Assembly: GCA_018664485.1 (NCBI GenBank)
Contig: JABJOE010000006.1
Coordinates: forward strand, 71,294-135,293
Length of the DNA stretch: 64,000 nt
Reading direction: 5' to 3'
Origin: Candidatus Uhrbacteria bacterium
Lineage (GTDB): Bacteria; Patescibacteriota; Patescibacteriia; UBA9934
A program made the position numbers and the translations under genes. Below are positions 17,501 to 62,879 of this stretch, piece by piece (the stretch's first letter is position 1; each line of letters begins with the position of its first letter). The notes beneath the pieces were generated by a model. The model worked only from the letters and a program-made list of their open reading frames with translations. It was not told the DNA's origin and searched no databases.

Positions 17501-19504
17501 TGCAGCAAGAACGGTATTTCCGTCTGAAATGAAAGTAGTAAGCGTGTCTCCAGATGTTGAAGAGTACGTAATTGAAACACGCCCACCTCCTCCACCACCA
17601 GAATCTTGTGTATCTCCACCGTTAGCGTCTCCACCGGTTGTAGTCAAGGTTCCACTAGAGCCCGCATACGGACCAGATGTAATATAAATTGAACCACCAG
17701 AACCTCCACCAGGAGATCTATTGGTGAGGGCATTGGTCGGGTCTCCACCGTTAGCACTAATCGTACCAGCGTGCGTCAATGTACCGGACACATCCAAACG
17801 AATAATTCCTCCACCAGGTCCTGCAACTGAATTTGATTCATTTGTATGTCCTCCAGTAGAACCATACAAAACCGGCGCAGTATTAGAACCATAGGTTCCA
17901 CCACCAGCACCACCAGAACCTCCATTACCGGTACCACCAGCACCACCATGTCCTCCTCCACCAGCATTTGAGTTACCCCCACCAGCACCCGTTTCGCTCC
18001 TTGTACACGCGTTTGAACCATCAGGCCCCTTACCGTCTACTGCTGATCCAGGAAAGTTTTCCGTACAGCCATATTCATCTGCATTTATAGAAGTACTTGA
18101 ACCAACCGAAAGAGCTACCAGATTAGTCCAGCTAACATTAGACCTAATACTAGTTGTTCCGGTTAGATCAATTGTTGCGGCATCATCTATAACAAACGTT
18201 CCACGAACACCTCCAGTAATTGTAACGTCATCCCATGTAGTGGTAACGCCTGCTGGAACAGTAAAATCAATATCGACACCTGTATTATTAACATTGATAG
18301 TTGATCCGCTGGCAATATCAAAATCATTTCCACCAGTAAATACAACGTCAGTTAAAGAAGCGTCAGTACACGTAAGTGTTCCTCCAAAATAAAACTCATC
18401 GGTAGCCGTTAGAGTTACATCTGCAGTTCCAGACTCACATGCAATAACAGATGTATCAAATCTCAATCCACCTGAGCTGGTTACGTTCGTAGCGTCGACA
18501 TAAAGTTGATAATAGTAAACAACGTCACTAGTTGCGGAGCCTAAAGTGTAAGCTGAACCATCAGTTCCATCAGCTGCGGACCCCGGCCCAGAACCACCCG
18601 AAACAAGAAAATCATTGGCAGCCATACCTCCCCCTCCGTTGAAAGAGTCTGTCGTGTATAACAATGAAATAATCCCTCCACCTCCACCTCCACCGTCAGC
18701 GGAGCTGTTATCACCTCCAGCACCACCGATCGCGGAGAACGTACCGGTAGAACCAGCGAGAGTACCCGTCGAGATAAATATAGACCCACCCGATCCACCA
18801 CCTCCAGCACGGTTCGTACTATTTGTACCACCAACAGCACCGTCTGATTCGATAATTCCATTATTAGTAAGCGTGGTCGTTACATCGATTCGAACAACAC
18901 CTCCTCCAGCACCACCTACTCCAGCGTTTCCAGACCCACCAGACGTACCGAATAGTAGCGGACCAGTCACTGTATCGTAATGAGATCCTGCAGCCTTAGT
19001 CGTTCCCGCACCACCGTTCCCACCATGACCTGACCCACCCGCACCCGTCGTACTAGTTGAGGCACCGATTCCAGCACCTGCAGTTGCAAGCGTACAGACA
19101 TTAGAACCGCTAGGCCCATAACCTGTATTGTTATTTGTAGATGTACAACCCTGACCATCTCCAGAAATAGAAGAACCGCTATCAATTTGAAGGTTGTCAG
19201 TTTTGAGGTATGGGTACCATCCATTAACTTGGTCTCCATCAAATGTAAGAGTAGAGGTTGAAGTTACAAGAATATCTACACCAGTACAGTCCCAATAATC
19301 CCCGAGTGCAGCATATCCAGTTGTATTCCAACTAGTGCTAGAGCTAATCGTAATAGTACCATCAGCGGTTGCGTCATCGTCACCGGCCCCACCGTCTGTT
19401 GCGGGACATGAAACTGCCGCAGCAGACACACTTTGAAAACCAAAAAAGATTCCCAACAAAGAGAAAATGACGATAAACAAACTCAGTCGTAAATAACGCG
19501 TCAT
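11558..19504 (-). CDS. Giant secreted cell-surface protein (2648 aa): signal peptide, Gly-rich beta-helix-like N-terminal third, then >=15 tandem ~95-100-aa Ig-like repeats, Big-like domain and acidic C-terminal domain
   Basis: N-terminus MTRYLRLSLFIVIFSLLGIFFGFQSVSAAA; GGxGGxG-rich tracts; recurring DGTIDR(V/L)D(I/V)TFSE..ECE(A/G)GDYT.GGADAGSIAV.SC..DLRLTLS.APSNDT.LTLT.AY.A.NGTA.SLDD unit, alternating with a Cys-free variant; ITPADGATDV Big-type segment near the C-terminus. Confidence 0.85.
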   Translation of the reverse strand: MTRYLRLSLFIVIFSLLGIFFGFQSVSAAAVSCPATDGGAGDDDATADGTITISSSTSWNTTGYAALGDYWDCTGVDILVTSTSTLTFDGDQVNGWYPYLKTDNLQIDSGSSISGDGQGCTSTNNNTGYGPSGSNVCTLATAGAGIGASTSTTGAGGSGHGGNGGAGTTKAAGSHYDTVTGPLLFGTSGGSGNAGVGGAGGGVVRIDVTTTLTNNGIIESDGAVGGTNSTNRAGGGGSGGSIFISTGTLAGSTGTFSAIGGAGGDNSSADGGGGGGGIISLLYTTDSFNGGGGMAANDFLVSGGSGPGSAADGTDGSAYTLGSATSDVVYYYQLYVDATNVTSSGGLRFDTSVIACESGTADVTLTATDEFYFGGTLTCTDASLTDVVFTGGNDFDIASGSTINVNNTGVDIDFTVPAGVTTTWDDVTITGGVRGTFVIDDAATIDLTGTTSIRSNVSWTNLVALSVGSSTSINADEYGCTENFPGSAVDGKGPDGSNACTRSETGAGGGNSNAGGGGHGGAGGTGNGGSGGAGGGTYGSNTAPVLYGSTGGHTNESNSVAGPGGGIIRLDVSGTLTHAGTISANGGDPTNALTNRSPGGGSGGSIYITSGPYAGSSGTLTTTGGDANGGDTQDSGGGGGGRVSITYSSTSGDTLTTFISDGNTVLAAAGSGSGTGQNGTAGTLYTSASATPPDLTSSVTKDDDGNGQIDQIIATFDLDLNASTVAGSDFTVAGFTVSSASETSAGIVTIILTESGSGDTDALPLVSVVGSVETTLGGELTSDSVTATDEAAPAATFGAYKDTNSDGTIDRIDITFSENIGLDECEAGDYTAGGADAGSIAVASCVASGDDLRLTISNAPSNDTNLTLTVAYTAANGTASSLDDSAGNAVADISATALADGAAPVSIGTQSYLDTDLDGQVDRVDITFSENIAVDECEGGDFTIGGADAGSISVASCATSSADLQLTLSSAPANDTLLTFTVAYTEANGTAGSLDDSAANAVADISALTLADAAAPVLASLAIDDTGGNGLIDQIVMTWSEDVDTNDSAAPVLADFGTILLPDGQTVSSATISDPAGSSAVVTLSSVVGQVAINTGAGSAAVSGITSEWTDGTNATSNPDGSVSIVDNANPFLRTDGSNDIQYEDNNTDGTVDRVRLKFSEAVTIAYTDGDWTATANDLTSFDVSAISSGNGTATIYLTATAQSNTTGVAGGTEPTLAFTASGGSITDANSNTDAAFSAETVDDAAAPALRTDGSNKMAYLDDNEDGTIDRVRLTFTEAATLTYSDGDWSATANDLTGFDTGAYLSGNGTTQILLTASANASLTGVSGGTEPTLAFTPSSGSIVDGGGASLSGISATTLVDEAIPVDMTRSYKDASANGTIDRLDVVFSETITVNECETADFTLAGADIGSVAISACAVSGTDLRLTLTGAPSNDTNLALTFAYDASNGTANSLDDAAGNDATDITTVALTDGAIPVLMSFTYQDDDGDGTIDQVTAVFTEDVTIVYADGDWAVTANDLSGFDVSAYDSGNGSASIILTATADVGVTGVAGGTEPTIEFTATTGSISDGTTTVPSLPESGVADGAAMAILAIGYKDINSDGTIDRLDVTFSEMPTLDECEFGDYTFGGDDSGTIAVSACATSGSDLRLTLSNTPSSDTNIDIEWNYTASSGTSGSLQDGGSEDAASFSDKAVTDQAAPIKVSQAYKDVNADGQVDRFDIVFTENIAYDECEAGDYTVGGADAGSISIASCATSTTSLQLTVSSAPSNDTALTLTLAYTAANGTSNSLDDTAGNAVADLTAAALTDLAAPVSTGQTYLDNDTDGKVDRVTVSFSESITLDECETEDFVFAGTDAGTIAVVDSSGCSVGGSTITFTVANAPSNDTSLSFTWSYANNETAGSLLDAASSAVTSVPAVTLTDLALPQLVSQTYVDANGDGTVDRADLTFTEVITVATCEVGDYAIAGADAGSMAVSACVVSGTDVRYTLTTAPSLDTLLTLTFAYDASNDTANSLVDANSNVLASLSAASLTDGAAAVMRTDGANAPAYGDANADGTIDQVTLTFTEPVTVTYSDGDWTAVANTLTSFDVSGYSSGNGSTAIVLTGSAAANLTGVSGGTEPTLAFTASTGSILDGTSNAISSIGATSLSDEASPVNVSQSYKDLDTDGDIDRLDIVFSETIEVGECEAGDYTIGGADAGSIAVSACVASTTDLRLTLTNTVANTTGPTLTFAYTAANGTADSLDDTDANAVVDISAVAIADAAGAVIVSITPADGATDVSRSADVVVVFSEAINTGSTAYSFDDSPSGLSNAWSVSDTTLTISHSGQFSGSSDITFTTTTANDTTGNALIGPAAGVTHPATFTTASASSSSTVYDSVDPSVGSLRVYQPVDSSKTVTSLSIDEKIKLTWTTLGPENLVDLSYSLNSGSTYTVIEQYMFNNSTYNWTPEGVEEGDEIIFKVELNDIANILSTASSAEYLFGEEEEVVEEEEAENAKSGVYCTDRFVKYHEFSTVYCVTNIGTRRPFVNSLAYFTWADSFDEIEEIEYEEMVSMSVDGLMLPKPGSVLVKIQSIPYVYMLTEQEGEVLRPQLRWITDEEVAIDLFGADWADYVVDMNPAFFSHFDVGDAVDDATLMDVDLSKLIKRVDLSLKSK

Positions 19505-26906: not shown

Positions 26907-29843
26907 CTAAACTACGAAGTTCATCATCCTCCCCTTCACGTAGATAACCTTCTTTACCTCCCCCTCAACGAACTTTGCAACATTTTCGTTTGCTCTTGCA
27001 GCAGCCTCAACCTCTTGCTGCGGAGCGTCGGGTGCAACCTCGAGCGTTGCTCTTAATTTTCCATTTACCTGGACCGCGAGCGTAATAACATCATCAACCA
27101 CTTGTGACTCGTCATACGCAGGCCACTTTTGTTGCTCAACAAACCCTGTAGCTCCAAGGTTCTCCGCAACTTCGTTTGCGATATGAGGGGCGAATGGGCA
27201 CAGAGTATACATGAACATCAGCAAAGACTCTTTTGTAAGTGCCTTGTGTTTGTTTACGACATTAATGAACGTCATCATCTGGGCGACAGCTGTATTGAAT
27301 CGTAAATTCTCAATATCTTCTCCCACTTTCTTTACAGTTTTATGTAACGCCTTGGTCACTTCTTTATCTTCCGAGATTGATACCATGTCTGGAAGCCTTG
27401 CGACCTTATCCAAGAAACGTCGAGTACCGATCATACCCTTAGTATTCCATGGAGCCGGCTCTTCAAAAGGTCCAACGAACATTTCGTACATGCGCAGAGT
27501 GTCCGCACCGTACTTGTCGACTACCTCATCTGGATCAATTCCGTTACCCTTAGACTTGGACATCTTCGTACCATCTTCAGCAAGGATCAAGCCATGGCTA
27601 TGTCTACGAGCATAAGGTTCGCTCACCGGGACATGACCTCGGTCGAACATCACCTTGTTCCAAAAACGAGAATATAGAAGATGCAGAACCGTGTGCTCCA
27701 TTCCACCATTATATAAATCAATTGGCATCCAGTACTCAAGCTTCTTCATGTCTGCAAAAGCTTCGTCGTTATGTGGATCAATATATCGGAGGAAGTACCA
27801 AGATGACCCTGCCCAGTTTGGCATAGTATCAGTCTCACGTTTTGCAGGACCATTACATGTCGGACACTCCGTATTCACCCAGTCGGTAATCGCAGAGAGT
27901 GGAGACTCACCGTCGTCTGTTGGCTGGTACTGATCTACCTCTGGAAGCTCAACCGGGAGCTGATCCTCGGGAACCGGAATCCATCCACCAGTTTCGGGAG
28001 AACAAGAATCACAATGGATCAAAGGAATCGGTTCACCCCAATAACGTTGGCGGGAGAACACCCAATCTCGAAGTTTATAGTTTACTGTCTTTTTTCCATG
28101 ACCGTTCTTTTCAAGCCAGGCGATCATCTCTTCTTTTGCTTCGTCTACTTTTTTCCCATCCAAGAAGTCGGAGTTGACTGACAACCCTTCTCCAGCATAC
28201 GCCTCCGCGTCAACGGATCCGCCGGACACAACCTCAACGATCGGTAAATCAAACGCCTTTGCAAACGCCCAATCTCGCTCGTCATGCGCCGGCACTGCCA
28301 TAATTGCTCCCGTTCCATATCCCATCATCACATAGTCTGCTACCCAAACAGGAATCTGTGCACCATTAGCTGGATTTACAGCGTAAGCACCAGTAAATGC
28401 ACCTGTCTTTTCTTTTGTGCCATCTCCTCGATCAATGTCTGACTTTTTTGAAGCGGCCTTCACGTAGGCCTCAACTTCAGCGCGTTTGTCATCCGTAACA
28501 ATCGTACTTACTAACGGATGTTCAGGCGCCAACACCATGTACGTCGCACCAAACAATGTATCCGGCCGCGTTGTGAAGACTTCAATTGATGGAATCAGTT
28601 GCGACAAGATAACTGGCTCTTCCTTACCGTTAAAATGACCTACCTCAGCCTCTGCTACTACCAACTCTCCTCGAAGATTGTTTGCAATCTGTACCGGATG
28701 ATCTTGAGGAACTGCCGGATCATTTTTATCTGCCAAGACAGTAAACCGTTTTGCCATTTTACTTATCGCACCAAAATCAAACTTCCAGTCACAGCAATCT
28801 CGAAGTGCTGGGCGTTCTTTTCCGTCCAATAGCTCCACATTCACAGGAGGTGCCACCATAATCACATGGCTAACCGGCGTATCCAAAGTTGGAAGTAGCT
28901 TCATAGCTGCGACACCGCCGAGCGAATGCGTGATAACAATAGTCTTCTCATTAAACGTATAGCTTTCTTTGATAAACTTGATTTGTTCTTCAATGTTTGG
29001 CTCCGATGGATTTGGCAAGTCTAAAACAGTAACACTCGCTCCGCGCCCTTCAAGCTCAGCTGACAACCATGGCCAAAACGCTTCCTTAGAATCATCCCGA
29101 AAGGCATGCAATCCAAGGATATTGTAACCACTTAAATCTGTATCAACCGTAAAATCAACTTCAGCTCCTTCGCTCCGTCCAATCCAATCCTGCTGCTGCT
29201 TTTTAATCTTTGGAAGATAGTCCACTGTGTCTAAATCATCGAGTAACCGTTGAGCGTACTTTGTAATCGCAATCATCCATTGCTCTTTGTCGCGCTTTTC
29301 AACCTCTCCTCCGCAGCGCTCACAAGCACCACCTACAACCTCTTCATTTGAAAGACCGATCTTGCATGACACACACCAGTTGATAGCCATCTTATCTTTG
29401 TACGCAAGTCCTTCTTTGAAGAACTCCAAAAACTGCCACTGAGTCCACTTGTAATAAGACGGGTCGGTTGTGTTTACCTCTCGTGACCAATCAAAACTAA
29501 TTCCAAGCGACTGAAGCTGCCGGCGGAAGGTGTCGATATTTTCCTTTGTCACCTCCTGAGGCTTTCGACCAGTCTTAATTGCATAGTTCTCCGTTGGAAG
29601 CCCAAAAGCATCCCAGCCAATCGGGTACAGAACATTAAATCCCTCCATTCGTTTTTTGCGAGCAAGAATATCGAGCGCCGTGTAGCTTCGGGGGTGACCC
29701 ATGTGCAGGCCTGACCCTGACGGATACGGAAACTCAATCAAACAATAAAATTTCTCTTTGTCAGAAAAATCTTCGGCATGAAAAACGCCCTCATCCTCCC
29801 AGCGTTTTTGCCACTTCTTATCAATCGATGAATGGTTATACAT
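26907..29843 (-). CDS. leuS: Leucyl-tRNA synthetase with an inserted RBBP9/YdeN-like alpha/beta serine-hydrolase domain before the CP1 editing domain
   Basis: 978 aa; HMGH and KMSKS class I motifs, TTRPDT and AVPAHD editing-domain motifs, C-terminus ..KKVIYVKGRMMNFVV; ~180 extra aa (aa ~236-418) containing FWPWL, LPNP, ITHSLGG, KNDPAVP, VGHF. Confidence 0.93.
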   Translation of the reverse strand: MYNHSSIDKKWQKRWEDEGVFHAEDFSDKEKFYCLIEFPYPSGSGLHMGHPRSYTALDILARKKRMEGFNVLYPIGWDAFGLPTENYAIKTGRKPQEVTKENIDTFRRQLQSLGISFDWSREVNTTDPSYYKWTQWQFLEFFKEGLAYKDKMAINWCVSCKIGLSNEEVVGGACERCGGEVEKRDKEQWMIAITKYAQRLLDDLDTVDYLPKIKKQQQDWIGRSEGAEVDFTVDTDLSGYNILGLHAFRDDSKEAFWPWLSAELEGRGASVTVLDLPNPSEPNIEEQIKFIKESYTFNEKTIVITHSLGGVAAMKLLPTLDTPVSHVIMVAPPVNVELLDGKERPALRDCCDWKFDFGAISKMAKRFTVLADKNDPAVPQDHPVQIANNLRGELVVAEAEVGHFNGKEEPVILSQLIPSIEVFTTRPDTLFGATYMVLAPEHPLVSTIVTDDKRAEVEAYVKAASKKSDIDRGDGTKEKTGAFTGAYAVNPANGAQIPVWVADYVMMGYGTGAIMAVPAHDERDWAFAKAFDLPIVEVVSGGSVDAEAYAGEGLSVNSDFLDGKKVDEAKEEMIAWLEKNGHGKKTVNYKLRDWVFSRQRYWGEPIPLIHCDSCSPETGGWIPVPEDQLPVELPEVDQYQPTDDGESPLSAITDWVNTECPTCNGPAKRETDTMPNWAGSSWYFLRYIDPHNDEAFADMKKLEYWMPIDLYNGGMEHTVLHLLYSRFWNKVMFDRGHVPVSEPYARRHSHGLILAEDGTKMSKSKGNGIDPDEVVDKYGADTLRMYEMFVGPFEEPAPWNTKGMIGTRRFLDKVARLPDMVSISEDKEVTKALHKTVKKVGEDIENLRFNTAVAQMMTFINVVNKHKALTKESLLMFMYTLCPFAPHIANEVAENLGATGFVEQQKWPAYDESQVVDDVITLAVQVNGKLRATLEVAPDAPQQEVEAAARANENVAKFVEGEVKKVIYVKGRMMNFVV

Positions 29844-42002: not shown

Positions 42003-42467
42003 TTACTGGACAGTGACTGCCGCACCTACGTTTCCGCAGGCATCCCTTGCGATCCTGGACGCCAGCATCTGTCGACGATATTCATCATGCCCTGTGTCGA
42101 ACGCCCAATCGACATAGTAGCCACCCAGACAGCGAGTGAGCACCCCAGGAGACCACGCGTCCGCAGGGTCTCCAGTGAAGCTGCCGATAGTGGGGACCAC
42201 GAAGGTTGGAGTGATCGAACCGTAGTCGACCATTGCCTGAGCGGGCGGGCTCGTAGGCAGAATTGGCTCAGCTACCCCGTACGGGAGCATGTAGGTAGTG
42301 GCCGTAGTGTCATTCGTGACCATGTCCAGGCTATCCAAGCCCTCAGGCCAGAAGTCTGGCAACACCACATAGACGTGATCAGGTGATTCAGCCGAGGCCT
42401 CATCGGGAGCGTCGCTAGGCCCACCACAACGGGGAACGAACATGAAAGCGAGAAATACAGTACGCAT
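42003..42467 (-). CDS. Hypothetical secreted protein (GC-rich orphan)
   Basis: ORF to 42527; start chosen at MRTVFLAFMFVP.. (AAGGA RBS); N-terminal signal-peptide-like segment. Confidence 0.5.
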   Translation of the reverse strand: MRTVFLAFMFVPRCGGPSDAPDEASAESPDHVYVVLPDFWPEGLDSLDMVTNDTTATTYMLPYGVAEPILPTSPPAQAMVDYGSITPTFVVPTIGSFTGDPADAWSPGVLTRCLGGYYVDWAFDTGHDEYRRQMLASRIARDACGNVGAAVTVQ

Positions 42468-42585
42468 GACTGTCCTTTTGAATTGGTGCGACAAGCCCTG
42501 CCGCAGGGGAAAATGATCTCCTATCAAGGTTCACAAAGACGCTTCAAAGTAGCACTAAATAGGCCCCATGTCAATCCATCGCTGC

Positions 42586-45638: not shown

Positions 45639-45715
45639 GCGGCGTTAGCTCAGCTGGATAGAGCGTCTGGCTTCGGACCAGAAGGTCGGGGGTTCGAACC
45701 CCTCACGCCGCACCA
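45639..45715 (+). tRNA. tRNA-Arg (anticodon TCG), CCA encoded
   Basis: Cloverleaf: acceptor GCGGCGT/ACGCCGC, D-stem GCTC/GAGC, anticodon stem TCTGG/CCAGA with loop CTTCGGA, T-arm GGGGG-TTCGAAC-CCCTC, discriminator A, CCA. Confidence 0.9.
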
Positions 45716-47435: not shown

Positions 47436-47732
47436 TTATTTTGTTTCTTTCTTTGTTTTCTTTGCAGCGACCTTCTTTTTTGGAGCTGCTTTCTTTTTTG
47501 GAGTTTCAGCCTTTTCTTCTTCCTTCTCCTTTTTCTTCATTTCTTTTACAACCTCTTTTGCAAGCTTTCCATCAGCCTTTTTCACTTTCGCCATTTTTGA
47601 CGGAGCGATGTGGTGCGGGAGACGTGGCTCACCAGTTTCTTTGTCGATCACAATATGCATCGGCTTGAGCGCGTGATGCGATCGTCGACGACGTACTTTT
47701 GATTTGGAATTTCGAAATTTTGGTACAGACAT
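47436..47732 (-). CDS. rpmF: 50S ribosomal protein L32 with lysine-rich C-terminal extension
   Basis: N-terminus MSVPKFRNSKSKVRRRRSHHALKP..DKETGEPRLPHH matches L32. Confidence 0.8.
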   Translation of the reverse strand: MSVPKFRNSKSKVRRRRSHHALKPMHIVIDKETGEPRLPHHIAPSKMAKVKKADGKLAKEVVKEMKKKEKEEEKAETPKKKAAPKKKVAAKKTKKETK

Positions 47733-47957
47733 AGAGTTTTAGAGGTAAAACAGACTGGATTGGAGATTACTAGAGGTAAAGACCCTACCCCAAATTACTG
47801 GGAGAGTGTACTTAAATAGCCATTTTCTGTCAATAGATAGAGTAAACTGCTGGATTCCAGCGTTTTGAAGTATATATAACAAATATCCATTAAACAAAGA
47901 GCCCCCTGAGCCAGATACAGCTCGAGGGGGACTTGAAGGACGCTTGAACGGCTGCTG

Positions 47958-48440
47958 TCAGCTCGCTTTTCTGTGGCTTCCACGCTTGTTTCCGCGGTCG
48001 ACGCGGGCAGGTGCCGACCGAGCTGTTCTTCGGCCAGGGAATCCACAGGAGTACGTGTAGAGCCTGGCGCCCAGTCGGGAAGACATGGAGTCGCCAACTG
48101 CATTCTGAAGAACACGCTGCATAGACACTCCATGATCACCTGCAAACAAGTAGGCACCACCGATCCGCTTGTTCTGCGTGACCCTGATACCGTTCTTCCT
48201 GCCAGTTGAGCAATTGATCAGAAGTACGCCATCAGCAAGATCGCGCTCAGCGAGCTCGGCGTCAGAAACTCCCTCCAAAAGGTCTTCATCGCCACCAGTA
48301 AGCTCGAGCCACGCGGCACGCGACAACTTCCTGGCCAAAAAGGCACCGCTCAAATGGCCCCTCGCACTGATCCAGAACCTGTTGAGATTTGGCGTGTTTT
48401 GTCCTTTGCGGACTTGAGCCGTAATCGAAATGAGAGCCAT
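47958..48440 (-). CDS. Hypothetical protein (160 aa) in a GC-rich islet; possible Rossmann-like core
   Basis: ORF with imperfect hairpin terminator downstream (47893-47925); central strand-like GVLLINCSTGRKNG; no secure family assignment. Confidence 0.5.
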   Translation of the reverse strand: MALISITAQVRKGQNTPNLNRFWISARGHLSGAFLARKLSRAAWLELTGGDEDLLEGVSDAELAERDLADGVLLINCSTGRKNGIRVTQNKRIGGAYLFAGDHGVSMQRVLQNAVGDSMSSRLGARLYTYSCGFPGRRTARSAPARVDRGNKRGSHRKAS

Positions 48441-48589
48441 GTATGACTTCCCCGGTGAATCGCGCCGGAAGTAGCGCGTCTGGAGGCTACCAAAAATCGA
48501 TCAAAATATCAAGGAATACCCTATGGATCTTGACAAAAAGCCAAAAATCTGGGATGCTCGAATTGGTCTGATCAACACAGGAGCACAGA

Positions 48590-48733
48590 CATGATCACCA
48601 ATAGCAACCTTTTGGCTGGCGGAAATCCGCAAGTCGCAAAACTACTACGCGACCTCGCACAAGATGCGGGCAACGTTTCACAACTCACGAAGGCCACCCC
48701 GCCAAGCAAACAGGAGCGGTCGACGGGCTGAGT
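48590..48733 (+). CDS. Small ORF (48 aa) with good RBS, immediately upstream of the GGDEF-like gene
   Basis: ACAGGAGCACAGAC-ATG; MITNSNLLAGGNPQVAKLLRDLAQDAGNVSQLTKATPPSKQERSTG; TTGACA-like -35 at 48529. Confidence 0.35.
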
Positions 48734-48794
48734 AAACACCTCTTCGTGATCGAGCCATGAGCCGATTCGAAGATACAAAACCATAGGGGGTCCT

Positions 48795-49784
48795 TTGAAC
48801 CCTGACGACAATGACGCGTTACTACAAAGCGCGCTTCGAGAAATCACCCGTCTGAAAAAACGGATTGAGAAACTGGAAACCGATGGAGTGACTGGCCTGT
48901 ACGTTGGAACCCTCCTTCGTGAAGACCTATTCCACGCAGTTTCCGGACCTCTCGCAAGCAGCGCTGCCGACGGCCTTCGCAGAGGTTGTCCAATCTCCAA
49001 CTACAGCAACGAGGAGTTGAAGGAACTCTGGGTATGCTTGGCAGCTATCGACGTCGACTACCTCACGCTCTGGAATCAGTTGCGTGGATCACATGCCGAC
49101 GGCAATCGAGCCTTTCGAGGAATCGGCTCAGCACTTCGCGAAGCCGGTAGCTCAGTCGAGTTGGCAAAGTTCTACCGAATCACCGGTGGGGACGAGCTCG
49201 CAGGACTCATCGTGGGAGACCAAAATGAGGCCATGGGCATCATGGACCAAGCTCAGAGGACGGCCAAGGAAACTCAGGTCTATGAAGGGCAACCACTTCC
49301 GGTGAATTTCACCTACGGTGTAGCGTCACTCATCGAGGCACTCGTGATTTACGGACGGCTGGACCCAAGTCTGATCCCTCCTGGCACGCGAGCACCCACA
49401 ACAGTGACCTTCCAGCTTCTGATGACGCTAGCCGACGCGCGGAGCTACAACTCCAAAGTCATTCGGCGAATGCTGCTGCTCACAGCCCTCTACAACCACG
49501 AGCGAGATCTTCTCGACAAGGTCTCCAAGTGGCTCACAAAAGGCATGCGCGGTAACGCCATGGCAACCGTTGCTGGGCTATGTGAACAGACCGTTGACCA
49601 ACGCGTAATCGCAATCGCCAATCTGATCGAGCGCGAAAGATCAGAAATGCTGACAAAGGAGCAGGTTGGAAGCCAATCACGGCTGATCCAAGAGGGCTCG
49701 GGACTTCCGCTCCAAGCAACTCTGGAAATCATGCGGATGGCTCGACTTCCATTCCCCGCGACACTCGTACCACATCTCTTCTAG
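48795..49784 (+). CDS. GGDEF/Cas10-palm-like nucleotidyl cyclase-fold protein with degenerate GGDEL motif and N-terminal coiled coil
   Basis: IDVDYLTLWNQLRGSHADGNRAFRGIGSALREA .. AKFYRITGGDELAGLIV .. AMGIMDQAQRTA .. FTYGVAS aligns to GGDEF-domain blocks (DxDxFK.iND.GH..GD, RyGGEEF, iR); GC-rich. Confidence 0.6.
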   Translation: MNPDDNDALLQSALREITRLKKRIEKLETDGVTGLYVGTLLREDLFHAVSGPLASSAADGLRRGCPISNYSNEELKELWVCLAAIDVDYLTLWNQLRGSHADGNRAFRGIGSALREAGSSVELAKFYRITGGDELAGLIVGDQNEAMGIMDQAQRTAKETQVYEGQPLPVNFTYGVASLIEALVIYGRLDPSLIPPGTRAPTTVTFQLLMTLADARSYNSKVIRRMLLLTALYNHERDLLDKVSKWLTKGMRGNAMATVAGLCEQTVDQRVIAIANLIERERSEMLTKEQVGSQSRLIQEGSGLPLQATLEIMRMARLPFPATLVPHLF

Positions 49785-49851
49785 TTTTTCCGATCCTCTT
49801 TCCGGACCTTCGTCAAACGAAGTTCTGAATAAGCCGATCGATAAAAACAAA

Positions 49852-49881
49852 AGCCCGCTGCCGTTTCTTCGGTAGCGGGCT
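49852..49881. terminator. Bidirectional terminator between the GGDEF-like gene and gyrA
   Basis: AGCCCGCTGCCG-tttcttc-GGTAGCGGGCT hairpin. Confidence 0.6.
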
Positions 49882-49893
49882 CTGTGCATCTAA

Positions 49894-52545
49894 CTATTTT
49901 TTCTTCTTTCCAGGCTTTGCCTTGCTGGATTTCGGAGATGCTTTCTTTTTAGCTTTTTCTGCAGGCTTTTTCGCCTTTGCAGTTTTCTTGCCGGCGCCCT
50001 TTTCAGGTGCTTGAGCGGCTTCAACGTTCTTTACCGCCTCCTCAACAGCCTCGGCAGCAGATTCGTTATCAATAAATGCAACACTTGATACCTGGTCATC
50101 ACCCTTCTTAAATCGCATGACTCGCACACCCTGTGTAGCGTGACCAAGAGATGAGATAGATTTCACAGACATTCGAATAACCTGACCTCCAGATGAGATC
50201 ACGAGAAGATCACGTGAATCCTTTTTCTTCACGATACGTCCTGTGATGATAGCTCCGGTTCGATCAGTGATCTTCGCAGTACGCACTCCAAGTCCTCCAC
50301 GGTTTTGCACGTTGTATTCTTTCAGAGCAGTTCGCTTACCGTAACCATTCTCGGTAATAACCATGAATTGGTCGCCAGCTTCACCCTCGCTCACAACTCC
50401 CATTCCAACAACGCGATCTTCACCCTTCATCTTAATTCCACGCACTCCAGATGCCACACGTCCCATTGGGCGAACATCACCCTCTGAGAACCGGATAGCC
50501 ATTCCACGAGCAGTAGCCAAGATAATCTCGTCATCACCCGTAGTTGTACGAGCCCACTCAAGTGCATCTCCGTTTTTAAGCTTGATCGCTATCAAACCGG
50601 TTGATCGTACATTTTCAAAATCAGAAATGTCGGTCTTCTTTACAGTTCCCTGCTTGGTCACCATTGTGATGTACTTCGCAGTCTCCAGATCTCCAGACTT
50701 CATCGTTGTAGTCACAGCCTCACCCGGAGCCAACTGTAAGAAGTTCACGATCGCTTGCCCCTTAGACGTTCTAGACGCCTCAGGAACCTCATACACCTTC
50801 AACTTAAACACGCGCCCACGAGATGTGAAGAACATGATATCTTGGTGCGTTGTAGTTGAGAAAATATCTTCAACTGTATCAGCTTCTTTTGTGGTGAGTC
50901 CCATCACTCCCTTTCCACCACGCGTTTGTGTCTTGAAAGTATCCGGTGCAATACGCTTGATGTACCCGTCCTTTGTCATCATCACGATAGTCTGCTCATC
51001 TGGAATAACATCCTCCATTGAGAAGTCTTTCACACCAGCTTTCACAATCTTCGTTCGACGATCTTCACCATACTTCTCGATCACCTCTTCCAACTCCTCG
51101 CGAATAACGCTCAGAATTCTCTTTGGTGACGCCAAGATAGCCTTCAGGTGCTTGATTAGTGCCATCTTATCGTTATATTCCTGCTCAATCTTCAAACGCT
51201 CGAGGTTTGCCAAACTTGAAAGGCGCATCTCCAAGATAGCAACAGCCTGCCGCTCACTCATCTTGAAAGACTTAACCAAATTCCCTCGCGCTTCTTCCTT
51301 GTCTTTTGATTTCTTGATTGTAGCGATAACTTTGTCGATCTTGAGAAGTGCGATACGTAACCCTTCCAAAATATGCGCACGCTCAAGAGCCTTATCCAAA
51401 TCATACTGAGTACGCCGCCTAACAACATTTTGACGATGTTTAATGTACTCTTCCAAAATCATCTTCAAGTTCAACGTACGTGGCTGACGTCCCTGCTCTA
51501 CCAAACAAACCATGTTGTAGTGGAATGATGTCTGCAACTGTGTAGCTTGGTACAAACGGTTAAGAACCTTCCGAGGATATGCATCGCGCTTAAGTTCGAT
51601 CACAACACGTACACCTTCCTTTGAAGACTCATCACGCAAGTCACGAATTCCTTCGATCTTCTTTGCTCGAACCAAATCTGCAATCTTCTCAAGCATCGCA
51701 GCCTTGTTCACCATGTAAGGAATTTCCGACACAATAATGCGGAAAGCACCCTTCTTGCCCTCAACGATCTCAGCTTGTGCGCGAACAACGACACCACCAC
51801 GCCCTGTCGAACATGCGGCTTTAATATCTTTCGCTCCATATGCAATTGCACCGGTTGGAAAGTCTGGACCCTTAACGTGCTGCAAGAGATCATCCATCGT
51901 TGCATCCGGATTATCCATCAATGTCAAAATAGCGGCACCGATCTCGCGCAAGTTATGCGGAGGGATATTGGTCGCCATTCCAACAGCAATTCCTAGAGTT
52001 CCGTTAACCAAAAGGTTTGGCAATCGGCCAGGAAGTACAGAAGGTTCTTTATGGGAACCGTCATAGTTCGGTCTAAAATCGACTGTATTTCGTTCAATAT
52101 CTAAAAGTAGTTCTTCGGCTACTGCCTGTAGCTTCGCCTCCGTATATCGCATGGCAGCTGCGGAGTCTCCGTCCATAGAACCGAAGTTTCCCTGACCACG
52201 AACGAGCTGGTGACGATAAGAAAACTCTTGCGCCATTCGAACCATCGCCTCGTAAATGGAAGAGTCTCCATGAGGGTGGTACTTAGCCATCACTTCTCCG
52301 ACAACGTTTGCAGACTTTCGGAATCGAGCGTTAGCACGCAGGCCAATAGACCACATCGCGTACAAAATACGACGCTGTACAGGCTTCAAGCCATCACGAA
52401 CATCCGGAAGAGCACGAGAAACAATAACACTCATTGCGTAATCCAAATACGCAGTCTTCATCTCCTCGGTAATGTCCTGCTTGATAATTCCACCAACCGC
52501 GAATTCGCTCTCTTCACCTTCTTCGGACTTTTTATTTTTTGCCAT
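49894..52545 (-). CDS. gyrA: DNA gyrase subunit A with lysine-rich C-terminal tail
   Basis: 883 aa; AAMRYTE active-site Tyr region, QRRILYAM, GyrA-box-containing C-terminal beta-pinwheel repeats. Confidence 0.96.
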
Positions 52546-56037: not shown

Positions 56038-57639
56038 ATGGGTCTAGCGCTCTTGCTTTTTTTATTGACAGATACCTGTTTTTCAAGCAACCTACTTCGG
56101 TCGGGCTCGATAGGACGAAAGTCATCGAGTTTTGACATGGACGTTACGTATAAAAAGACGTTTCAGGATTTACCTGGGCGTTTGCGATCATCGCGCGTAT
56201 GTAACACATTGAAAGGCAAAGTCATGTCACAGAAGTCAGTAACAGTCGATTTCCTCCTCGCCCTTGGTAATGCGGGAGCGGACAGAGAGCTCCTGCAAAA
56301 GCTCACCGAGATCATCAGACGCGGACGCGTCGAACCCCTTGAAGATGGTGAAGTGAGCCGATTCAAGTGGCCGATCAAACTCCATGGAGAGTATCGCATC
56401 CGCGACATCAGGCTTTGCATCAATGGAAGTATGCAGGTGCTTGTGACAAACAAGGCCCGTAGGGTGCCTGAGCTATGGGTTGGACAGATCAACGACTCAA
56501 ATCCAGACAACTGGGAAAATCTACTGGACGGGAATGCCTCTTACGTGATCCTGCTCGGCTTCGGTGTCGACGGGACACACATGTACCTATGGCTGGACCA
56601 ACAAGATGAGGATGGTCAACGTCTATACCTGAGGTTCTATGATCGGGACCACGAGATCGACCATAAAATTGGAGGCCGTTTTGATGTAGATGCCCTGACA
56701 CGCAAGTACACCGCAAACCCGCCACTTACCTGGGTAGACGCAAACGGCGTGCAGTGCTCGTTACATCATCCGACACACAACCTGAGAGGCAATCTGTGCG
56801 TCAAAGTGAACGATCACTCAATTAAACCGGACCAGGCCGGACACATATACACCCCTCCGCGTGGGAGTGCGTGGATCGAATATTCCACACGATCCCATCA
56901 TGAGACGGTAGTAATACCCTCCCTTTCTTTCCGATCCAACGAACTTCGCGGATGCGTAGTTCCTGAGTCGGTAACGGACATCGATGATAAAGCATGTTTC
57001 CTGCAAGTCTCAGATCGTGGTGTCTTTCTCCACTATGGACAAACGAATCGCCAGCTACACGTAAACCTACGGCGCCACTCAGAAAAGATGTGGGTACGAG
57101 TCGTGGGCGACACTATGTTCATCAAGCACTGGGAACAGGACGACAGCACCGGCAACTGGAGCTGGGCACTGCAACTGATACGTGGTGGTGAACACCATGA
57201 GTGCATTGCGCTCGAGGCGATGTCGTTTGGACCAAGAAATCCAGACCCCATCATCCTTGGTGACATGGGATTTGCAATCATTTTGCATGACGGTCATAAC
57301 GATCCTCACAAGATCATGATCTTCGACAAAATGGGAGAACGTGTCCGCTACGAAACGAACGCTGTTACCAACCTACTAGAATATCGGCAAGAACGAGCAG
57401 AACTGAGCACCGCCGAGTGCAACGGCTGCCTGGTGATACGTAATCGAGATGAGGGCGGTAAAGCAAAGATCTCTGTCTTTGATCCGTTTGCGGACGAACA
57501 GACAATTCTCAACCAGATCGCATGCAGCGCGCCATGCCGCAACACCAAGGTCACAGACGTTGTATATGTTGAAGGCCAAGGATACCTGACGGTTCGTCAC
57601 ATCGGTGACGGAATCCTCTCGGTCATGCGCTTCGGATAG
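56038..57639 (+). CDS. Hypothetical protein (533 aa), His/Cys/Trp-rich, GC-richer than neighbours
   Basis: AGGGAG RBS 8 nt upstream of the ATG; hydrophobic N-terminus; hairpin CGCCCGCCCCGG..TGGGGCGGGC after the stop. Confidence 0.55.
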   Translation: MGLALLLFLLTDTCFSSNLLRSGSIGRKSSSFDMDVTYKKTFQDLPGRLRSSRVCNTLKGKVMSQKSVTVDFLLALGNAGADRELLQKLTEIIRRGRVEPLEDGEVSRFKWPIKLHGEYRIRDIRLCINGSMQVLVTNKARRVPELWVGQINDSNPDNWENLLDGNASYVILLGFGVDGTHMYLWLDQQDEDGQRLYLRFYDRDHEIDHKIGGRFDVDALTRKYTANPPLTWVDANGVQCSLHHPTHNLRGNLCVKVNDHSIKPDQAGHIYTPPRGSAWIEYSTRSHHETVVIPSLSFRSNELRGCVVPESVTDIDDKACFLQVSDRGVFLHYGQTNRQLHVNLRRHSEKMWVRVVGDTMFIKHWEQDDSTGNWSWALQLIRGGEHHECIALEAMSFGPRNPDPIILGDMGFAIILHDGHNDPHKIMIFDKMGERVRYETNAVTNLLEYRQERAELSTAECNGCLVIRNRDEGGKAKISVFDPFADEQTILNQIACSAPCRNTKVTDVVYVEGQGYLTVRHIGDGILSVMRFG

Positions 57640-61100: not shown

Positions 61101-62879
61101 ATGTCTGGTGATCTACCGTCAATTGAAGATTTATTGAAAAAGTCTGCATCGCAAGGTGGAGACGGCGACGCTGTTGCGGCACCTGATGAGGACATAGTGG
61201 TTCCCGTTAAAAAGTCTCACGAGGACATGACTACCGAGGAGCTTCTCGACGAGAAGATGGGAAAGATGGACCTCAAGTCAAAAGAGCAAGAGGCATTAGC
61301 TATGTCTGCCACAGCTGGTGTTCCCTACGTCGACTTAAAAGGGTTCGCGATTAGTGCAGACGCCATTTCTCTTATCCCTCAGAAACGTGCAGAAGAGCTC
61401 AAGGCTGTTGTTTTTCTACATACCGGTCCTGAGTTACGTCTTGGTGCAGTTGATCCGGCTAATGAGGAGGTAAAGCAAGTACTTCACGAGCTTACTGAAC
61501 GCTACAAGACAAACGGTGAGTTGTACCAGATCTCACAAGAATCTTTGGACAAGGCGATAAAGCTATACGCTGCCCTTCCGCAGATTCGCGTCATCGTTAA
61601 AGGTGTCCAGATCAAAAAAGAGGAACTCGAGGCATATCAAGAAAAGATGAATAGCTTTGCCGATATACAAGCGATCTTGGACGGTGCGAGTATTACAGAT
61701 ATTCTTTCAATCGTTACAGCGGCATCCCTTAAACTTGGTTCGTCAGACATCCACATTGAAGCTGAAGAGAAAGAAATCGCAGTACGCTTGCGAGTGGACG
61801 GAATTCTACAAGACGTTGCAAGTATCGATAAAGCTCAGTGGAAGAAAATCATCAACCGAATCAAGCTCATCGCAGGGCTTAAAATGAATATCAACGATCG
61901 TCCTCAAGATGGTCGCTTCACAATTTTTCAAAAAGGTAAAAAGATCGACGTTCGTACATCTACCCTTCCAACTGCATGGGGAGAATCGGTAGTTATGCGT
62001 ATTTTGAATCCCGATTCTATCAAGCTTAAGTTTGAAGACCTCGGTTTCCGGCCAGCTTCACTCAAACGCTTACTGTCAGAGATTAGTAAGCCCCATGGAA
62101 TGATCGTTACAACCGGTCCAACTGGATCTGGTAAAACGACAACGCTGTATGCGATCCTTACAAAGCTCAACGAGCCTGACGTAAAAATCATCACGCTCGA
62201 GGATCCGATTGAGTACAAACTCGCAGGTGTAAACCAGAGTCAGATCAACCACTCAAACGACTACACGTTCGCAAAAGGACTACGATCTATCTTGCGTCAG
62301 GACCCGGACATCGTTCTAGTGGGTGAGATCCGTGACCTTGAAACAGCAGAGACCGCAATTCAGGCAGCGCTTACCGGTCACCTTCTACTCTCCACAATCC
62401 ATACCAACGATGCGGCCGGAGCAATCCCTCGATTTACTTCAATGGGTGTGAAACCGTTTTTACTAGCGCCTGCAATTAACGCGATCATGGGTCAGCGTCT
62501 TGCGCGTCGACTATGTCAGGAATGCAAAAAGCCGACAGAGATCGAAGCGGAACTTCTCGTGAAGGTTAAAGAACTACTCGACACAATCCCTGAAAGTTCC
62601 GGGGAGCAAAAAGTAGATACAACCAAGCTTCAGTTCTTCGGCCCTGGAGGGTGTGATAAATGTAATGATACTGGCTATAAAGGTCGAGTCGGGCTCTATG
62701 AGATCCTCACAAAAGACGCAGAGATTGAGAAGTTTATCCTAAGTGGTGAGATTTCAGAGTACAAAGTTCGAGAAGTGGCGGCAGCGCAGGGTATGGTCTT
62801 CATGGCTCAAGACGGCCTATTGAAGGCACTGGAAGGTCAAACATCTGTGGCGGAAATAAAACGAGTAACTGGGATGTAA
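61101..62879 (+). CDS. pilB: Type IV pilus assembly / type II secretion ATPase (PilB/GspE family)
   Basis: 592 aa; N-terminal T2SSE_N domain, GPTGSGKTTTL Walker A, Asp box, His box, CxxC..CxxC zinc tetracysteine. Confidence 0.92.
   Translation: MSGDLPSIEDLLKKSASQGGDGDAVAAPDEDIVVPVKKSHEDMTTEELLDEKMGKMDLKSKEQEALAMSATAGVPYVDLKGFAISADAISLIPQKRAEELKAVVFLHTGPELRLGAVDPANEEVKQVLHELTERYKTNGELYQISQESLDKAIKLYAALPQIRVIVKGVQIKKEELEAYQEKMNSFADIQAILDGASITDILSIVTAASLKLGSSDIHIEAEEKEIAVRLRVDGILQDVASIDKAQWKKIINRIKLIAGLKMNINDRPQDGRFTIFQKGKKIDVRTSTLPTAWGESVVMRILNPDSIKLKFEDLGFRPASLKRLLSEISKPHGMIVTTGPTGSGKTTTLYAILTKLNEPDVKIITLEDPIEYKLAGVNQSQINHSNDYTFAKGLRSILRQDPDIVLVGEIRDLETAETAIQAALTGHLLLSTIHTNDAAGAIPRFTSMGVKPFLLAPAINAIMGQRLARRLCQECKKPTEIEAELLVKVKELLDTIPESSGEQKVDTTKLQFFGPGGCDKCNDTGYKGRVGLYEILTKDAEIEKFILSGEISEYKVREVAAAQGMVFMAQDGLLKALEGQTSVAEIKRVTGM

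What the first reader, a model, noticed from the sequence alone, without database searches (positions are those of the whole stretch)
47940..49890. GC-rich islet with a degenerate GGDEF/Cas10-palm-like cyclase-fold protein, a 48-aa upstream ORF and a divergent 160-aa orphan
The segment between rpmF and gyrA is clearly GC-richer than the flanking housekeeping genes and is bounded by hairpin terminators on both sides. The 329-aa protein aligns block by block to GGDEF-domain diguanylate cyclases: a metal-binding IDVDY block, RxGGDE(L) signature and downstream helix. It has GGDEL instead of GGDEF/GGEEF and an N-terminal coiled coil. This resembles the minimal standalone palm-domain polymerases (mCpol-like) that Burroughs et al. 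predicted, from comparative genomics and typically next to CARF-type sensor genes, to act in nucleotide-signal-based conflict systems, or alternatively a degenerate c-di-GMP receptor. It is preceded by a 48-aa ORF with a good RBS. It faces a divergently transcribed 160-aa protein with a Rossmann-like strand (GVLLINCSTGRKNG). That protein could be a ligand-binding effector or partner. A two- or three-gene nucleotide-second-messenger module of foreign origin in a reduced genome is a candidate for an uncharacterised signalling or defence system.
Basis: partly seen in the sequence, partly recalled or inferred. Interest (0 to 1): 0.65.

Follow-up and report, generated by a model that had tools for sequence, protein, structure and literature searches.

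The report
Fast-evolving GGDEF cyclase with micro-ORF
The GC-rich stretch between rpmF and gyrA encodes a real but very divergent GGDEF-type nucleotide cyclase preceded by a conserved micro-gene; it was inherited vertically in a small-genome bacterial lineage, so it is not a foreign defence island, and its only unusual feature is that both guanine-selecting residues have been replaced.

Summary
The observation largely holds. The islet has GC of 0.52-0.57 against about 0.44-0.47 in the flanks, with hairpins at both ends. It contains a 329-aa ORF with IDVDY and GGDEL motifs, a 46-aa (not 48-aa) upstream ORF and a divergent 160-aa ORF.

- **True GGDEF family.** The 329-aa protein belongs to a rare family of about 27 cluster representatives, one labelled Candidatus Uhrbacteria. 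The family profile hits solved diguanylate cyclases at E=8e-23. Nothing matches mCpol or Cas10.
- **Not foreign.** Four related genomes carry the gene in the same rnc-nusB-rpmF/gyrA slot. Its divergence tracks the flanks but is much faster: 34-61% identity against 81-94% for rnc and gyrA, and dN/dS of about 0.36 against 0.03-0.07. The GC3 excess recurs in all four.
- **Conserved partner is the micro-ORF.** Its motif (L-L-A-G-G-x-x-x-V-A-x-L-L) occurs in 6 of 9 loci. The 160-aa ORF has one homologue, and the CHAT and Rossmann hints fail.
- **Catalytic residues intact, no I-site.** The window copy replaces both guanine determinants: PleD D344 becomes Asn and R300 becomes Gly. This coupled switch recurs in about four branches of a rough family tree.

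Best reading: a coiled-coil dimeric cyclic-dinucleotide synthase, possibly with altered nucleotide specificity. Interest is modest.

The parts
47902..47930 (-). Hairpin followed by a T-rich tract. It is the likely terminator of the 160-aa ORF and the left edge of the GC-high segment.
   Evidence: The fold z-score is only -1.7, so this is the weaker of the two hairpins.
47958..48440 (-). Divergently transcribed 160-aa orphan ORF. It is soluble, and it is not a conserved part of the module.
   Evidence: One homologue only: the 175-aa ORF at the same position in L005/L006 (30% identity over 133 aa, E=1e-21). L013 and L008 carry unrelated ORFs at this position, and L021 carries only a remnant. The Pfam CHAT hit scores 17 bits against a 24-bit cut-off, and the putative Cys is not conserved.
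48441..48590 (.). Divergent intergenic region, with a Shine-Dalgarno GGAG at 48580-48583 for the micro-ORF.
   Evidence: Sequence. No Rfam match at E<=1. The sigma-70 consensus scan found no promoter here.
48591..48731 (+). 46-aa micro-ORF with the conserved N-terminal motif N-L-L-A-G-G-N-P-Q-V-A-K-L-L and a polar tail.
   Evidence: The same motif lies immediately upstream of family members in L005, L021, L010, L015 and L020. The Gly-Gly codons vary at the wobble position, and most copies have a purine-rich Shine-Dalgarno-like stretch before the start codon. dN/dS is 0.35 for L005 against L021.
48795..49784 (+). 329-aa GGDEF-family cyclase gene. Coiled coil at about residues 3-29; GGDEF domain at about residues 30-228 (D86, N94, N104, GGDEL 131-135 = nt 49185-49199, K221, R224/R225); family-specific C-terminal extension at about residues 229-329.
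49852..49881 (.). 12-bp G+C-rich hairpin. It is a probable bidirectional terminator shared by the 329-aa gene and the convergent gyrA, and the right edge of the islet.
   Evidence: -43.8 kcal/mol for the 115-nt stretch, z = -6.8. On the - strand the hairpin is followed by UUUUGUUUUUAU.

Best explanation
The islet is a vertically inherited, fast-evolving two-gene unit: a 46-aa micro-protein gene followed by a gene for a soluble GGDEF-family nucleotide cyclase.

The cyclase most likely dimerises through its N-terminal coiled coil. That would bring two NTP-loaded GGDEF domains together to make a cyclic dinucleotide. D86 and D133 would hold Mg2+, E134 would act as the general base across the dimer, and K221 with R224/R225 would bind the phosphates. 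There is no RxxD product-inhibition site. The about 100-residue C-terminal extension and the co-transcribed micro-protein are the likely regulatory inputs, but their roles are unknown.

In this genome's copy both residues that make canonical enzymes guanine-specific are replaced. The Watson-Crick-face Asp is Asn (N104) and the cross-dimer Arg is Gly (G38). The product may therefore not be plain c-di-GMP.

The 160-aa divergent ORF is a lineage-restricted orphan, not a core partner.

Shown: domain identity, residue conservation, synteny, evolutionary rate, and micro-ORF conservation. Inferred: catalysis, dimerisation, product, and the role of the micro-protein.
For: **Family and domain.**
- An exhaustive phmmer search found 29 proteins at E<=1e-3, mostly of about 250-390 aa. 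Apart from the query itself and one chimeric contig, these are about 27 relatives, and several align over most of the protein's length.
- 23 of the 25 aligned members hit Pfam GGDEF, the best at 4e-21.
- The family profile hits annotated diguanylate cyclases at 1e-19 to 1e-10 in a database of 5.8 billion sequences.
- It hits solved diguanylate cyclases at 8e-23 to 5e-12. Degenerate GGDEF domains (FimX, a c-di-GMP-binding protein, DosP) reach only 5e-5 to 8e-4.
- The best PDB hit is the GCN4-zipper-WspR fusion, and the alignment covers both the zipper and the GGDEF domain.

**Residues.** D86, N94, G-D-E and K221 are invariant or nearly so. PleD numbering was verified against PDB chains. The roles of the residues are taken from PMC6456294.

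**Vertical descent.** The slot is shared by L005/L006, L013 and L021. The L005-L021 pair is the closest for the flanks (92-94% for rnc and gyrA) and also for the cyclase (61%). All other pairs give 81-86% for rnc and gyrA against 34-44% for the cyclase. dN/dS is 0.36 against 0.03-0.07 for the flanks, so the gene is constrained but much less so than its neighbours.

**Micro-ORF.**

**Specificity switch.** None of the 5 members with Asn keep the cross-dimer Arg, against 17 of the 19 with Asp (Fisher p=5e-4). A rough neighbour-joining tree places the switched members on about four branches.

**Localisation.** None of the three proteins has a transmembrane segment.
Against: - The window protein on its own falls just below Pfam's GGDEF cut-off (20.5 against 23.8 bits).
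- No activity data exist for any family member.
- The fifth motif residue is Leu, not Phe, and there is a one-residue insertion before GGDEL.
- Replacing both base-contacting residues could equally mean loss of substrate binding.
- The high dN/dS is compatible with decaying function.
- A crude motif search of the 64 kb found no receptor or phosphodiesterase for a cyclic dinucleotide (no EAL, HD-GYP or MshEN motif, and one PilZ-like pattern hit that was not followed up). The rest of the about 1-Mb genome was not available.
- Single-sequence AlphaFold models were unusable (pLDDT 44 and 37), so there is no structural confirmation.
- The persistent GC3 excess is unexplained.
Confidence: 0.6

Rival explanations
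1. Catalytically dead or decaying GGDEF protein. The gene is drifting under relaxed selection or has been re-used as a non-enzymatic scaffold or receptor, and the changes at the two base-contacting positions reflect loss of NTP binding.
For: - dN/dS is 5-13 times higher than in the flanking genes.
- The window copy scores below Pfam's threshold.
- N104 and G38 replace residues present in most active diguanylate cyclases. The cross-dimer Arg is conserved in 94% of them according to PMC6456294.
- Most D-to-S mutants of canonical enzymes are inactive.
Against: - The metal ligands, the general base and the phosphate-binding Lys are retained in all five switched members.
- The ORF is intact in every genome seen.
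- dN/dS is well below 1.
- There is no I-site for c-di-GMP binding.
- The family profile matches active cyclases far better than degenerate GGDEF domains.
- The two substitutions are coupled and recur on several branches, which looks like selection rather than decay.
Confidence: 0.2
2. One reading: a nucleotide-second-messenger conflict or defence module. An mCpol-like synthase makes a signal sensed by the 160-aa protein or by the micro-protein, which acts as an effector.
For: - Very fast evolution of the cyclase and turnover of the neighbouring small ORFs.
- A compact operon with a synthase.
- mCpol and GGDEF share the palm fold (PMC12657218).
Against: - No match to mCpol or Cas10.
- No PADLOC or PHROG hit.
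- No relatives on viral contigs or in phage genomes, apart from one ordinary GGDEF hit.
- Vertical inheritance at a housekeeping locus rather than patchy occurrence in defence islands.
- None of the nine family loci examined carries a recognisable membrane, nuclease or sensor-domain effector next to the gene. The one enzyme-like neighbour is a LigT/2H phosphoesterase at L018.
- The 160-aa ORF is absent from most of them.
Confidence: 0.07
3. Recently acquired foreign DNA, with the GC excess as a signature of horizontal transfer.
For: - GC is about 0.10 above the flanks and GC3 about 0.14-0.2 above.
- The protein has almost no close relatives in a database of 5.8 billion sequences.
Against: - The same slot, the same orientation and the same GC offset occur in four genomes whose background GC ranges from 0.45 to 0.52.
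- The divergence ranking is the same as for the flanking genes.
- There are no terminal repeats, no integrase and no adjoining tRNA.
- A second GC-high orphan at 42.0-42.5 kb shows the same syntenic, fast-evolving pattern. This points to a genome-wide property of lineage-specific genes.
Confidence: 0.03

Closest known systems
Canonical GGDEF diguanylate cyclases with an N-terminal dimerising stalk (WspR, PleD; the engineered GCN4-WspR fusion 3I5C)
   Same: - The D-x-[LV]-T-G-L start, the D-x-D-Y metal-binding strand, the sugar-face Asn, the G-G-D-E-Φ hairpin and the A-D-x-x-x-Y-x-x-K helix are all present.
- A coiled coil sits directly upstream of the domain.
- The family profile gives E=8e-23 to 3I5C.
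   Different: - There is no receiver or sensor domain and no RxxD I-site.
- There is an extra C-terminal extension of about 100 aa with no match to any family.
- There are insertions after the first helix and before the last helix.
- The Watson-Crick-face Asp and the cross-dimer Arg are replaced in the window copy.
- A conserved micro-ORF lies upstream.
Hypr GGDEF enzymes (GacA, Bd0367), which make 3',3'-cGAMP
   Same: - The same two positions depart from the canonical state: the Watson-Crick-face residue and the cross-dimer Arg (PMC6456294).
- The central motif residue is Asp (GGDEx), as the 'Goldilocks' model requires for non-Asp variants.
   Different: - The window protein has Asn, not Ser or Thr, at the Watson-Crick-face position. 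I found no study of an Asn variant in the searched literature.
- It has no Rec domain.
- It belongs to a separate, very divergent family.
- Its product is untested.
mCpol (OptS) of the Panoptes system and the Cas10 palm domain
   Same: RRM-like palm fold superfamily, with an acidic residue on a beta-hairpin, and a small operon.
   Different: - mCpol largely lacks the GGDEF sequence motif, is a minimal domain, and is linked to S-2TMβ or other effectors (PMC12657218).
- Here the motif is complete, the protein has extra domains, no effector is linked, and no sequence match to mCpol or Cas10 was obtained.

Membership tests
GGDEF domain (Pfam PF00990), diguanylate-cyclase type | Significant profile match to the GGDEF domain | tested here: met
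   The window protein alone scores 20.5 bits (E=4.4e-4), below the 23.8-bit cut-off. However, 23 of 25 family members match (best 4e-21), and the family profile hits solved diguanylate cyclases at 8e-23.
GGDEF domain (Pfam PF00990), diguanylate-cyclase type | Metal-binding Asp (PleD D327) and an acidic pair in GG[D/E]EF (PleD E370/E371) | tested here: met
   D86, D133 and E134 are present and nearly invariant in the family. PleD numbering was checked. The fifth residue is Leu rather than Phe; relatives have F, I, V, L or Y.
GGDEF domain (Pfam PF00990), diguanylate-cyclase type | Guanine recognition: sugar-face Asn (PleD N335) and Watson-Crick-face Asp (PleD D344) | tested here: not met
   N94 is present, but position 104 is Asn rather than Asp. 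Five of 24 members have Asn.
GGDEF domain (Pfam PF00990), diguanylate-cyclase type | Cross-dimer Arg stacking on guanine (PleD R300; R537 of 5LLX; 94% of diguanylate cyclases according to PMC6456294) | tested here: not met
   G38 sits in the family column that is Arg in 17 of the 19 members with the canonical Asp.
GGDEF domain (Pfam PF00990), diguanylate-cyclase type | Phosphate-binding Lys/Arg in the last helix (PleD K442/R446; numbering recalled from memory) | tested here: inconclusive
   The motif L-A-D-A-R-S-Y-N-S-K-V-I-R-R matches A-D-x-A-L-Y-x-A-K-x-x-G-R, and K221 is invariant. The HMM alignments to PDB chains stop before this helix, so the equivalence rests on motif matching only.
GGDEF domain (Pfam PF00990), diguanylate-cyclase type | Synthesis of c-di-GMP from GTP | not testable with these tools
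   This needs an enzyme assay.
mCpol / Cas10 palm polymerases | Sequence or profile similarity to mCpol or Cas10 palm models or structures | tested here: not met
   Pfam at E<=10 returns only GGDEF. The PDB profile search at E<=1e-3 returns 54 chains, all of them GGDEF domains.
mCpol / Cas10 palm polymerases | Operon link to an S-2TMβ, CARF, SAVED or HEPN effector | tested here: not met
   No such gene lies next to the window gene or in the nine family loci inspected. The 160-aa ORF has no such domain.
CHAT/caspase-like protease (for the 160-aa ORF) | Profile match above threshold and a conserved His/Cys dyad | tested here: not met
   The hit scores 17 bits against a 24-bit cut-off. The candidate Cys in LLINCSTG aligns to Leu in the only homologue (LELVLKAG).
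Degenerate GGDEF c-di-GMP receptors (I-site binders) | An RxxD I-site five residues before the motif, with degraded catalytic residues | tested here: not met
   The corresponding segment reads S-V-E-L-A-K-F-Y-R-I-T-GGDEL, with no RxxD, and the catalytic residues are retained.
Known anti-phage defence systems (PADLOC-DB) | Match to a defence-protein model, and a patchy or island-like distribution | tested here: not met
   None of the three proteins has a PADLOC hit. The gene is inherited with its housekeeping neighbours.

The most novel reading that the evidence does not exclude
The window enzyme, and at least three other branches of this family, is a naturally specificity-switched GGDEF cyclase. 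The guanine-selecting Asp and the cross-dimer Arg have been replaced together (Asp to Asn; Arg to Gly, Asn, Ala or Asp). It would therefore make a cyclic dinucleotide other than c-di-GMP, for example an adenine-containing one, and would be controlled by a dedicated 40-60-aa micro-protein. That would be a second, independent 'Hypr-like' invention on the GGDEF scaffold, in ultra-small-genome bacteria.
Probability: 0.25. Interest if true: 0.55.

Novelty: new variant of a known kind. Interest (0 to 1): 0.33.

Why it matters
If active, this may be one of very few second-messenger synthases in a genome of about 1 Mb, so it would be a handle on how ultra-small bacteria regulate behaviour such as attachment or pili.

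The recurrent coupled Asp-to-Asn and loss-of-Arg switch gives a clean, testable prediction about how GGDEF enzymes change nucleotide specificity.

The conserved micro-ORF is a candidate new regulator of a cyclase.

The case is also a caution. A GC-high, orphan-looking islet was not horizontally acquired. It is a vertically inherited, fast-evolving gene whose GC3 excess persists across genomes, and that excess remains unexplained.

Tried and rejected
- **Structured RNA.** I asked whether the GC-high islet was a structured RNA. Rfam gave nothing at gathering score for the window and nothing at E<=1 for the islet.
- **Structure prediction.** Single-sequence AlphaFold2 models of the 329-aa and 160-aa proteins were unusable (pLDDT 44 and 37).
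- **P0002 as an alternative context.** P0002 looked like an ETF-domain protein sharing the C-terminus. It is a chimeric metagenome contig: an etfA fragment joined to the gene at a shared GNAMATV/ggtaacgccatggcaaccgtt word.
- **CHAT protease reading of the 160-aa ORF.** Rejected, because the Cys is not conserved.
- **Family-wide locus searches.** The genome-collection search with the 25-sequence alignment failed for lack of a conserved stretch. A 5-sequence alignment found only one species genome and one extra metagenome locus.
- **Mobile-element hallmarks.** There are no flanking direct or inverted repeats.
- **PilB as receptor.** The PilB at 61101-62879 has a Pfam MshEN match, but it lacks the RLGxxLLxxGLI c-di-GMP-binding motif.
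- **Taxonomy.** The relative L006 is labelled 'uncultured Gammaproteobacteria' in its record. One family member is labelled Candidatus Uhrbacteria, and the gene content looks like that of Candidate Phyla Radiation bacteria (RNase Y, a contig of about 1 Mb). The phylum is therefore unresolved.
Full report
**What is in the sequence.**
The segment 47.8-49.8 kb has GC of 0.52-0.57, while the flanking rnc, nusB, rpmF and gyrA genes have 0.41-0.47. At 1-kb resolution only the bin at 63-64 kb is slightly higher.

The segment holds three ORFs:
- a 160-aa ORF at 47958-48440 on the - strand;
- a 329-aa ORF at 48795-49784 on the + strand, with a TTG start.

A hairpin with a T-tract at 47902-47930 (- strand) follows the 160-aa ORF. 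A strong 12-bp G+C hairpin at 49852-49881 lies between the 329-aa gene and the convergent gyrA. Rfam finds only a tRNA-Arg at 45639 in the whole window and nothing in the islet at E<=1. No repeats bracket the islet.

**The 329-aa protein is a genuine GGDEF-family protein.**
On its own it scores just under Pfam's GGDEF threshold (20.5 against 23.8 bits, E=4.4e-4, residues 80-179). It matches WspR chains in the PDB at about 5e-6.

A word-indexed search of 5.8 billion proteins found only the protein itself. An exhaustive phmmer search of 1.84 billion representatives found 29 proteins at E<=1e-3, mostly of about 250-390 aa. Apart from the query itself and one chimeric contig, these are about 27 relatives, and several align over most of the protein's length.
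- Of 25 aligned members, 23 hit Pfam GGDEF, the best at 4e-21.
- The family profile hits annotated diguanylate cyclases at 1e-19 to 1e-10.
- It hits solved cyclases at 8e-23 to 5e-12. Degenerate GGDEF domains (FimX, a c-di-GMP-binding protein, DosP) reach only 5e-5 to 8e-4.
- No mCpol/OptS or Cas10 chain and no such Pfam family appears.
- The best PDB match is the GCN4-zipper-WspR fusion, aligned through both the zipper and the domain. This fits the predicted N-terminal helix at residues 3-29.
- PADLOC and PHROGs give nothing.
- One member is named 'diguanylate cyclase [Candidatus Uhrbacteria bacterium]' by NCBI.

**Active-site anatomy.**
I checked PleD numbering against PDB chains and took residue roles from the Hypr-GGDEF structure paper PMC6456294. 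The equivalences are:

| Window residue | PleD equivalent | Role |
|---|---|---|
| D86 | D327 | metal binding |
| N94 | N335 | sugar-face base contact |
| N104 | D344 | Watson-Crick-face base contact |
| G131-G132-D133-E134-L135 | GGEEF 368-372 | motif hairpin; Mg ligand and general base |
| G38 | R300 | cross-dimer Arg (94% of cyclases) |

K221 and R224/R225 match the A-D-x-x-x-Y-x-x-K-x-x-x-R helix by motif only. D86, N94, G-D-E and K221 are invariant or nearly so in the family. There is no RxxD I-site.

The protein is therefore divergent but not degenerate. The exception is that both guanine-selective positions are changed.

Across the family, the five members with Asn at the D344 position (the window protein, P0008, P0011, P0012 and P0019) all lack the Arg. 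Seventeen of the nineteen members with Asp keep it (Fisher p=5e-4). A rough neighbour-joining tree places the switched members on about four separate branches. The window's own syntenic orthologues are in the canonical Asp+Arg state. These are the two positions that distinguish Hypr (cGAMP-forming) GGDEFs from canonical ones, although Hypr enzymes use Ser there. I found no report of an Asn variant.

**Not foreign: syntenic, vertical, fast.**
Family members sit in the same rnc-nusB-rpmF / gyrA slot in L005/L006 (P0031), L013 (P0005) and L021 (P0007). P0024 sits next to gyrA in a version of the slot expanded by extra genes.

| Comparison | Flanking genes | GGDEF-like gene |
|---|---|---|
| Amino-acid identity, most pairs | 81-86% (rnc, gyrA) | 34-44% |
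| Amino-acid identity, closest pair (L005-L021) | 92-94% (rnc, gyrA) | 61% |
| dN/dS (L005-L021) | 0.03-0.07 | about 0.36 |

The ranking of pairs is the same for the cyclase and the flanks. dS is near saturation, so the dN/dS values are approximate.

The GC excess (about +0.10-0.14 overall, GC3 about +0.14-0.2) recurs in all four genomes even though background GC differs (0.45-0.52). This argues against recent transfer. It leaves the compositional offset unexplained.

Another GC-high orphan at 42003-42527 shows the same syntenic, fast-evolving pattern (35% identity to its L005 counterpart). The offset may therefore be a general property of lineage-specific genes in these genomes. No relatives were found on viral contigs, and only one ordinary GGDEF hit was found in phage genomes.

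**The conserved partner is the micro-ORF, not the 160-aa ORF.**
A 38-89-aa ORF lies directly upstream, on the same strand, of the family gene in nine loci. Six of them share an N-terminal motif:
- window: NLLAGGNPQVAKLL
- L005: PFIRSGGVEELETFL
- L021: PFIRSGGVKELENYL
- L010: PYLLAGGSERVAALI
- L015: AFLRSGGSDRVAALL
- L020: SFLMSGGSSRVARIL

At the DNA level the Gly-Gly codons are conserved with wobble variation, and most copies have a purine-rich Shine-Dalgarno-like stretch before the start codon. This favours a translated peptide over an RNA element. In L005 and L021 the peptide's stop codon abuts the cyclase start.

The 160-aa ORF has one homologue, the 175-aa ORF in L005/L006 (30% identity, E=1e-21). 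L013 and L008 carry unrelated small ORFs at that position. L021 has only a 43-aa remnant resembling the L013 type. The weak Pfam CHAT hit (17 against 24 bits) fails because the candidate Cys is not conserved, and the 'Rossmann-like strand' is not conserved either. A two-sequence profile finds nothing in the PDB. None of the three proteins has a transmembrane segment.

**Mechanism.**
The best-supported reading is a coiled-coil-dimerised GGDEF cyclase that makes a cyclic dinucleotide. It lacks product inhibition. A family-specific C-terminal extension and a co-expressed micro-protein are the likely regulatory elements. The replaced base-recognition residues make the product uncertain.

Domain identity, residue conservation, synteny, evolutionary rate and micro-ORF conservation are shown. 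Catalysis, dimerisation, product and the peptide's role are inferred.

The rivals are:
- a decaying or non-catalytic protein, supported by the high rate and the lost guanine contacts, and opposed by the retained metal and base residues and by the recurrent coupled switch;
- recent horizontal transfer, which is contradicted by synteny.

**Limits.**
- Only 64 kb of the about 986-kb contig was available. A crude motif search of it found no EAL, HD-GYP, MshEN or second GGDEF motif, and one PilZ-like pattern hit that was not followed up. The presence of receptors or phosphodiesterases elsewhere is unknown.
- The PilB at 61101-62879 has a Pfam MshEN match but lacks the c-di-GMP-binding motif.
- The literature searches found only a general statement that ultra-small bacteria encode diguanylate cyclases (PMC9938205). 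They found nothing on this family.

**Verdict.**
The object is a divergent subfamily of a very well known enzyme kind. It has three uncharacterised features: a micro-ORF partner, a C-terminal extension, and a recurrent switch at both guanine-determinant positions. Interest is modest (0.33). The most novel reading that remains possible is a new natural specificity switch on the GGDEF scaffold (probability about 0.25).

Noticed in passing
window 26907-29843 (-): The 978-aa leucyl-tRNA synthetase carries a Pfam Ser_hydrolase match (PF06821, E=3.6e-10) at residues 253-407, inside the synthetase and just before the editing domain. An inserted hydrolase-like module in LeuRS is unusual.
   Followed up: no
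window 42003-42527 (-): This is a second GC-high region (0.59) with an orphan ORF and no Pfam hit. It has a 35%-identical counterpart at the same position, next to the Fur-ZnuA genes, in L005. It therefore shows the same 'syntenic, fast-evolving, GC-high' pattern as the islet.
   Followed up: partly
window 56038-57639 (+): A 533-aa orphan ORF with raised GC (about 0.50-0.53) and no Pfam match. The gene lists of two related genomes do not show it at this position: the P0024 genome has a 155-aa gene between S1 and FtsH, and in L005 the preceding interval holds urocanase.
   Followed up: no
window 11558-19504 (-): A giant 2648-aa ORF whose only Pfam match is a single Big_5 Ig-like domain near its C-terminus. 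It is probably a surface protein.
   Followed up: no
window 61101-62879 (+): A PilB-type T2SSE ATPase with a Pfam MshEN match (E=1.6e-8). It lacks the RLGxxLLxxGLI motif that binds c-di-GMP, so it is not an obvious receptor.
   Followed up: partly
L001 1-1016: A chimeric metagenome contig. An alphaproteobacterium-like etfB/etfA fragment is fused in frame to the last 79 codons of the GGDEF-like gene at a shared GNAMATV word. This produced a spurious 'ETF-domain' homologue, P0002.
   Followed up: yes
L018 3852-5362 (and L019): In the P0010 locus the family gene overlaps by 4 nt a downstream LigT/2H-phosphoesterase gene. That gene is a candidate cognate phosphodiesterase for the cyclic nucleotide product.
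   Followed up: no
L020 3611-5690: A tandem arrangement: a canonical 194-aa coiled-coil GGDEF (GGEEI motif, Asp+Arg state), then a 59-aa micro-ORF, then the Asn-type family member P0011. This is consistent with two cyclases that have different products.
   Followed up: no
L014 7180-8325 and L020 5767-6891: In two family loci near ruvC, the GGDEF-like gene is followed by a homologous secreted protein of about 375-381 aa (shared VYAVEPGG(I/V)LRW... block).
   Followed up: no
window 47436-47732 and 49894-50000 (-): RpmF and GyrA both carry long Lys-rich C-terminal tails, and NusB carries an acidic tail. The related MAG L006 is labelled 'uncultured Gammaproteobacteria'. That label sits oddly with the presence of RNase Y and a contig of about 1 Mb, so the taxonomy is unresolved.
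   Followed up: no
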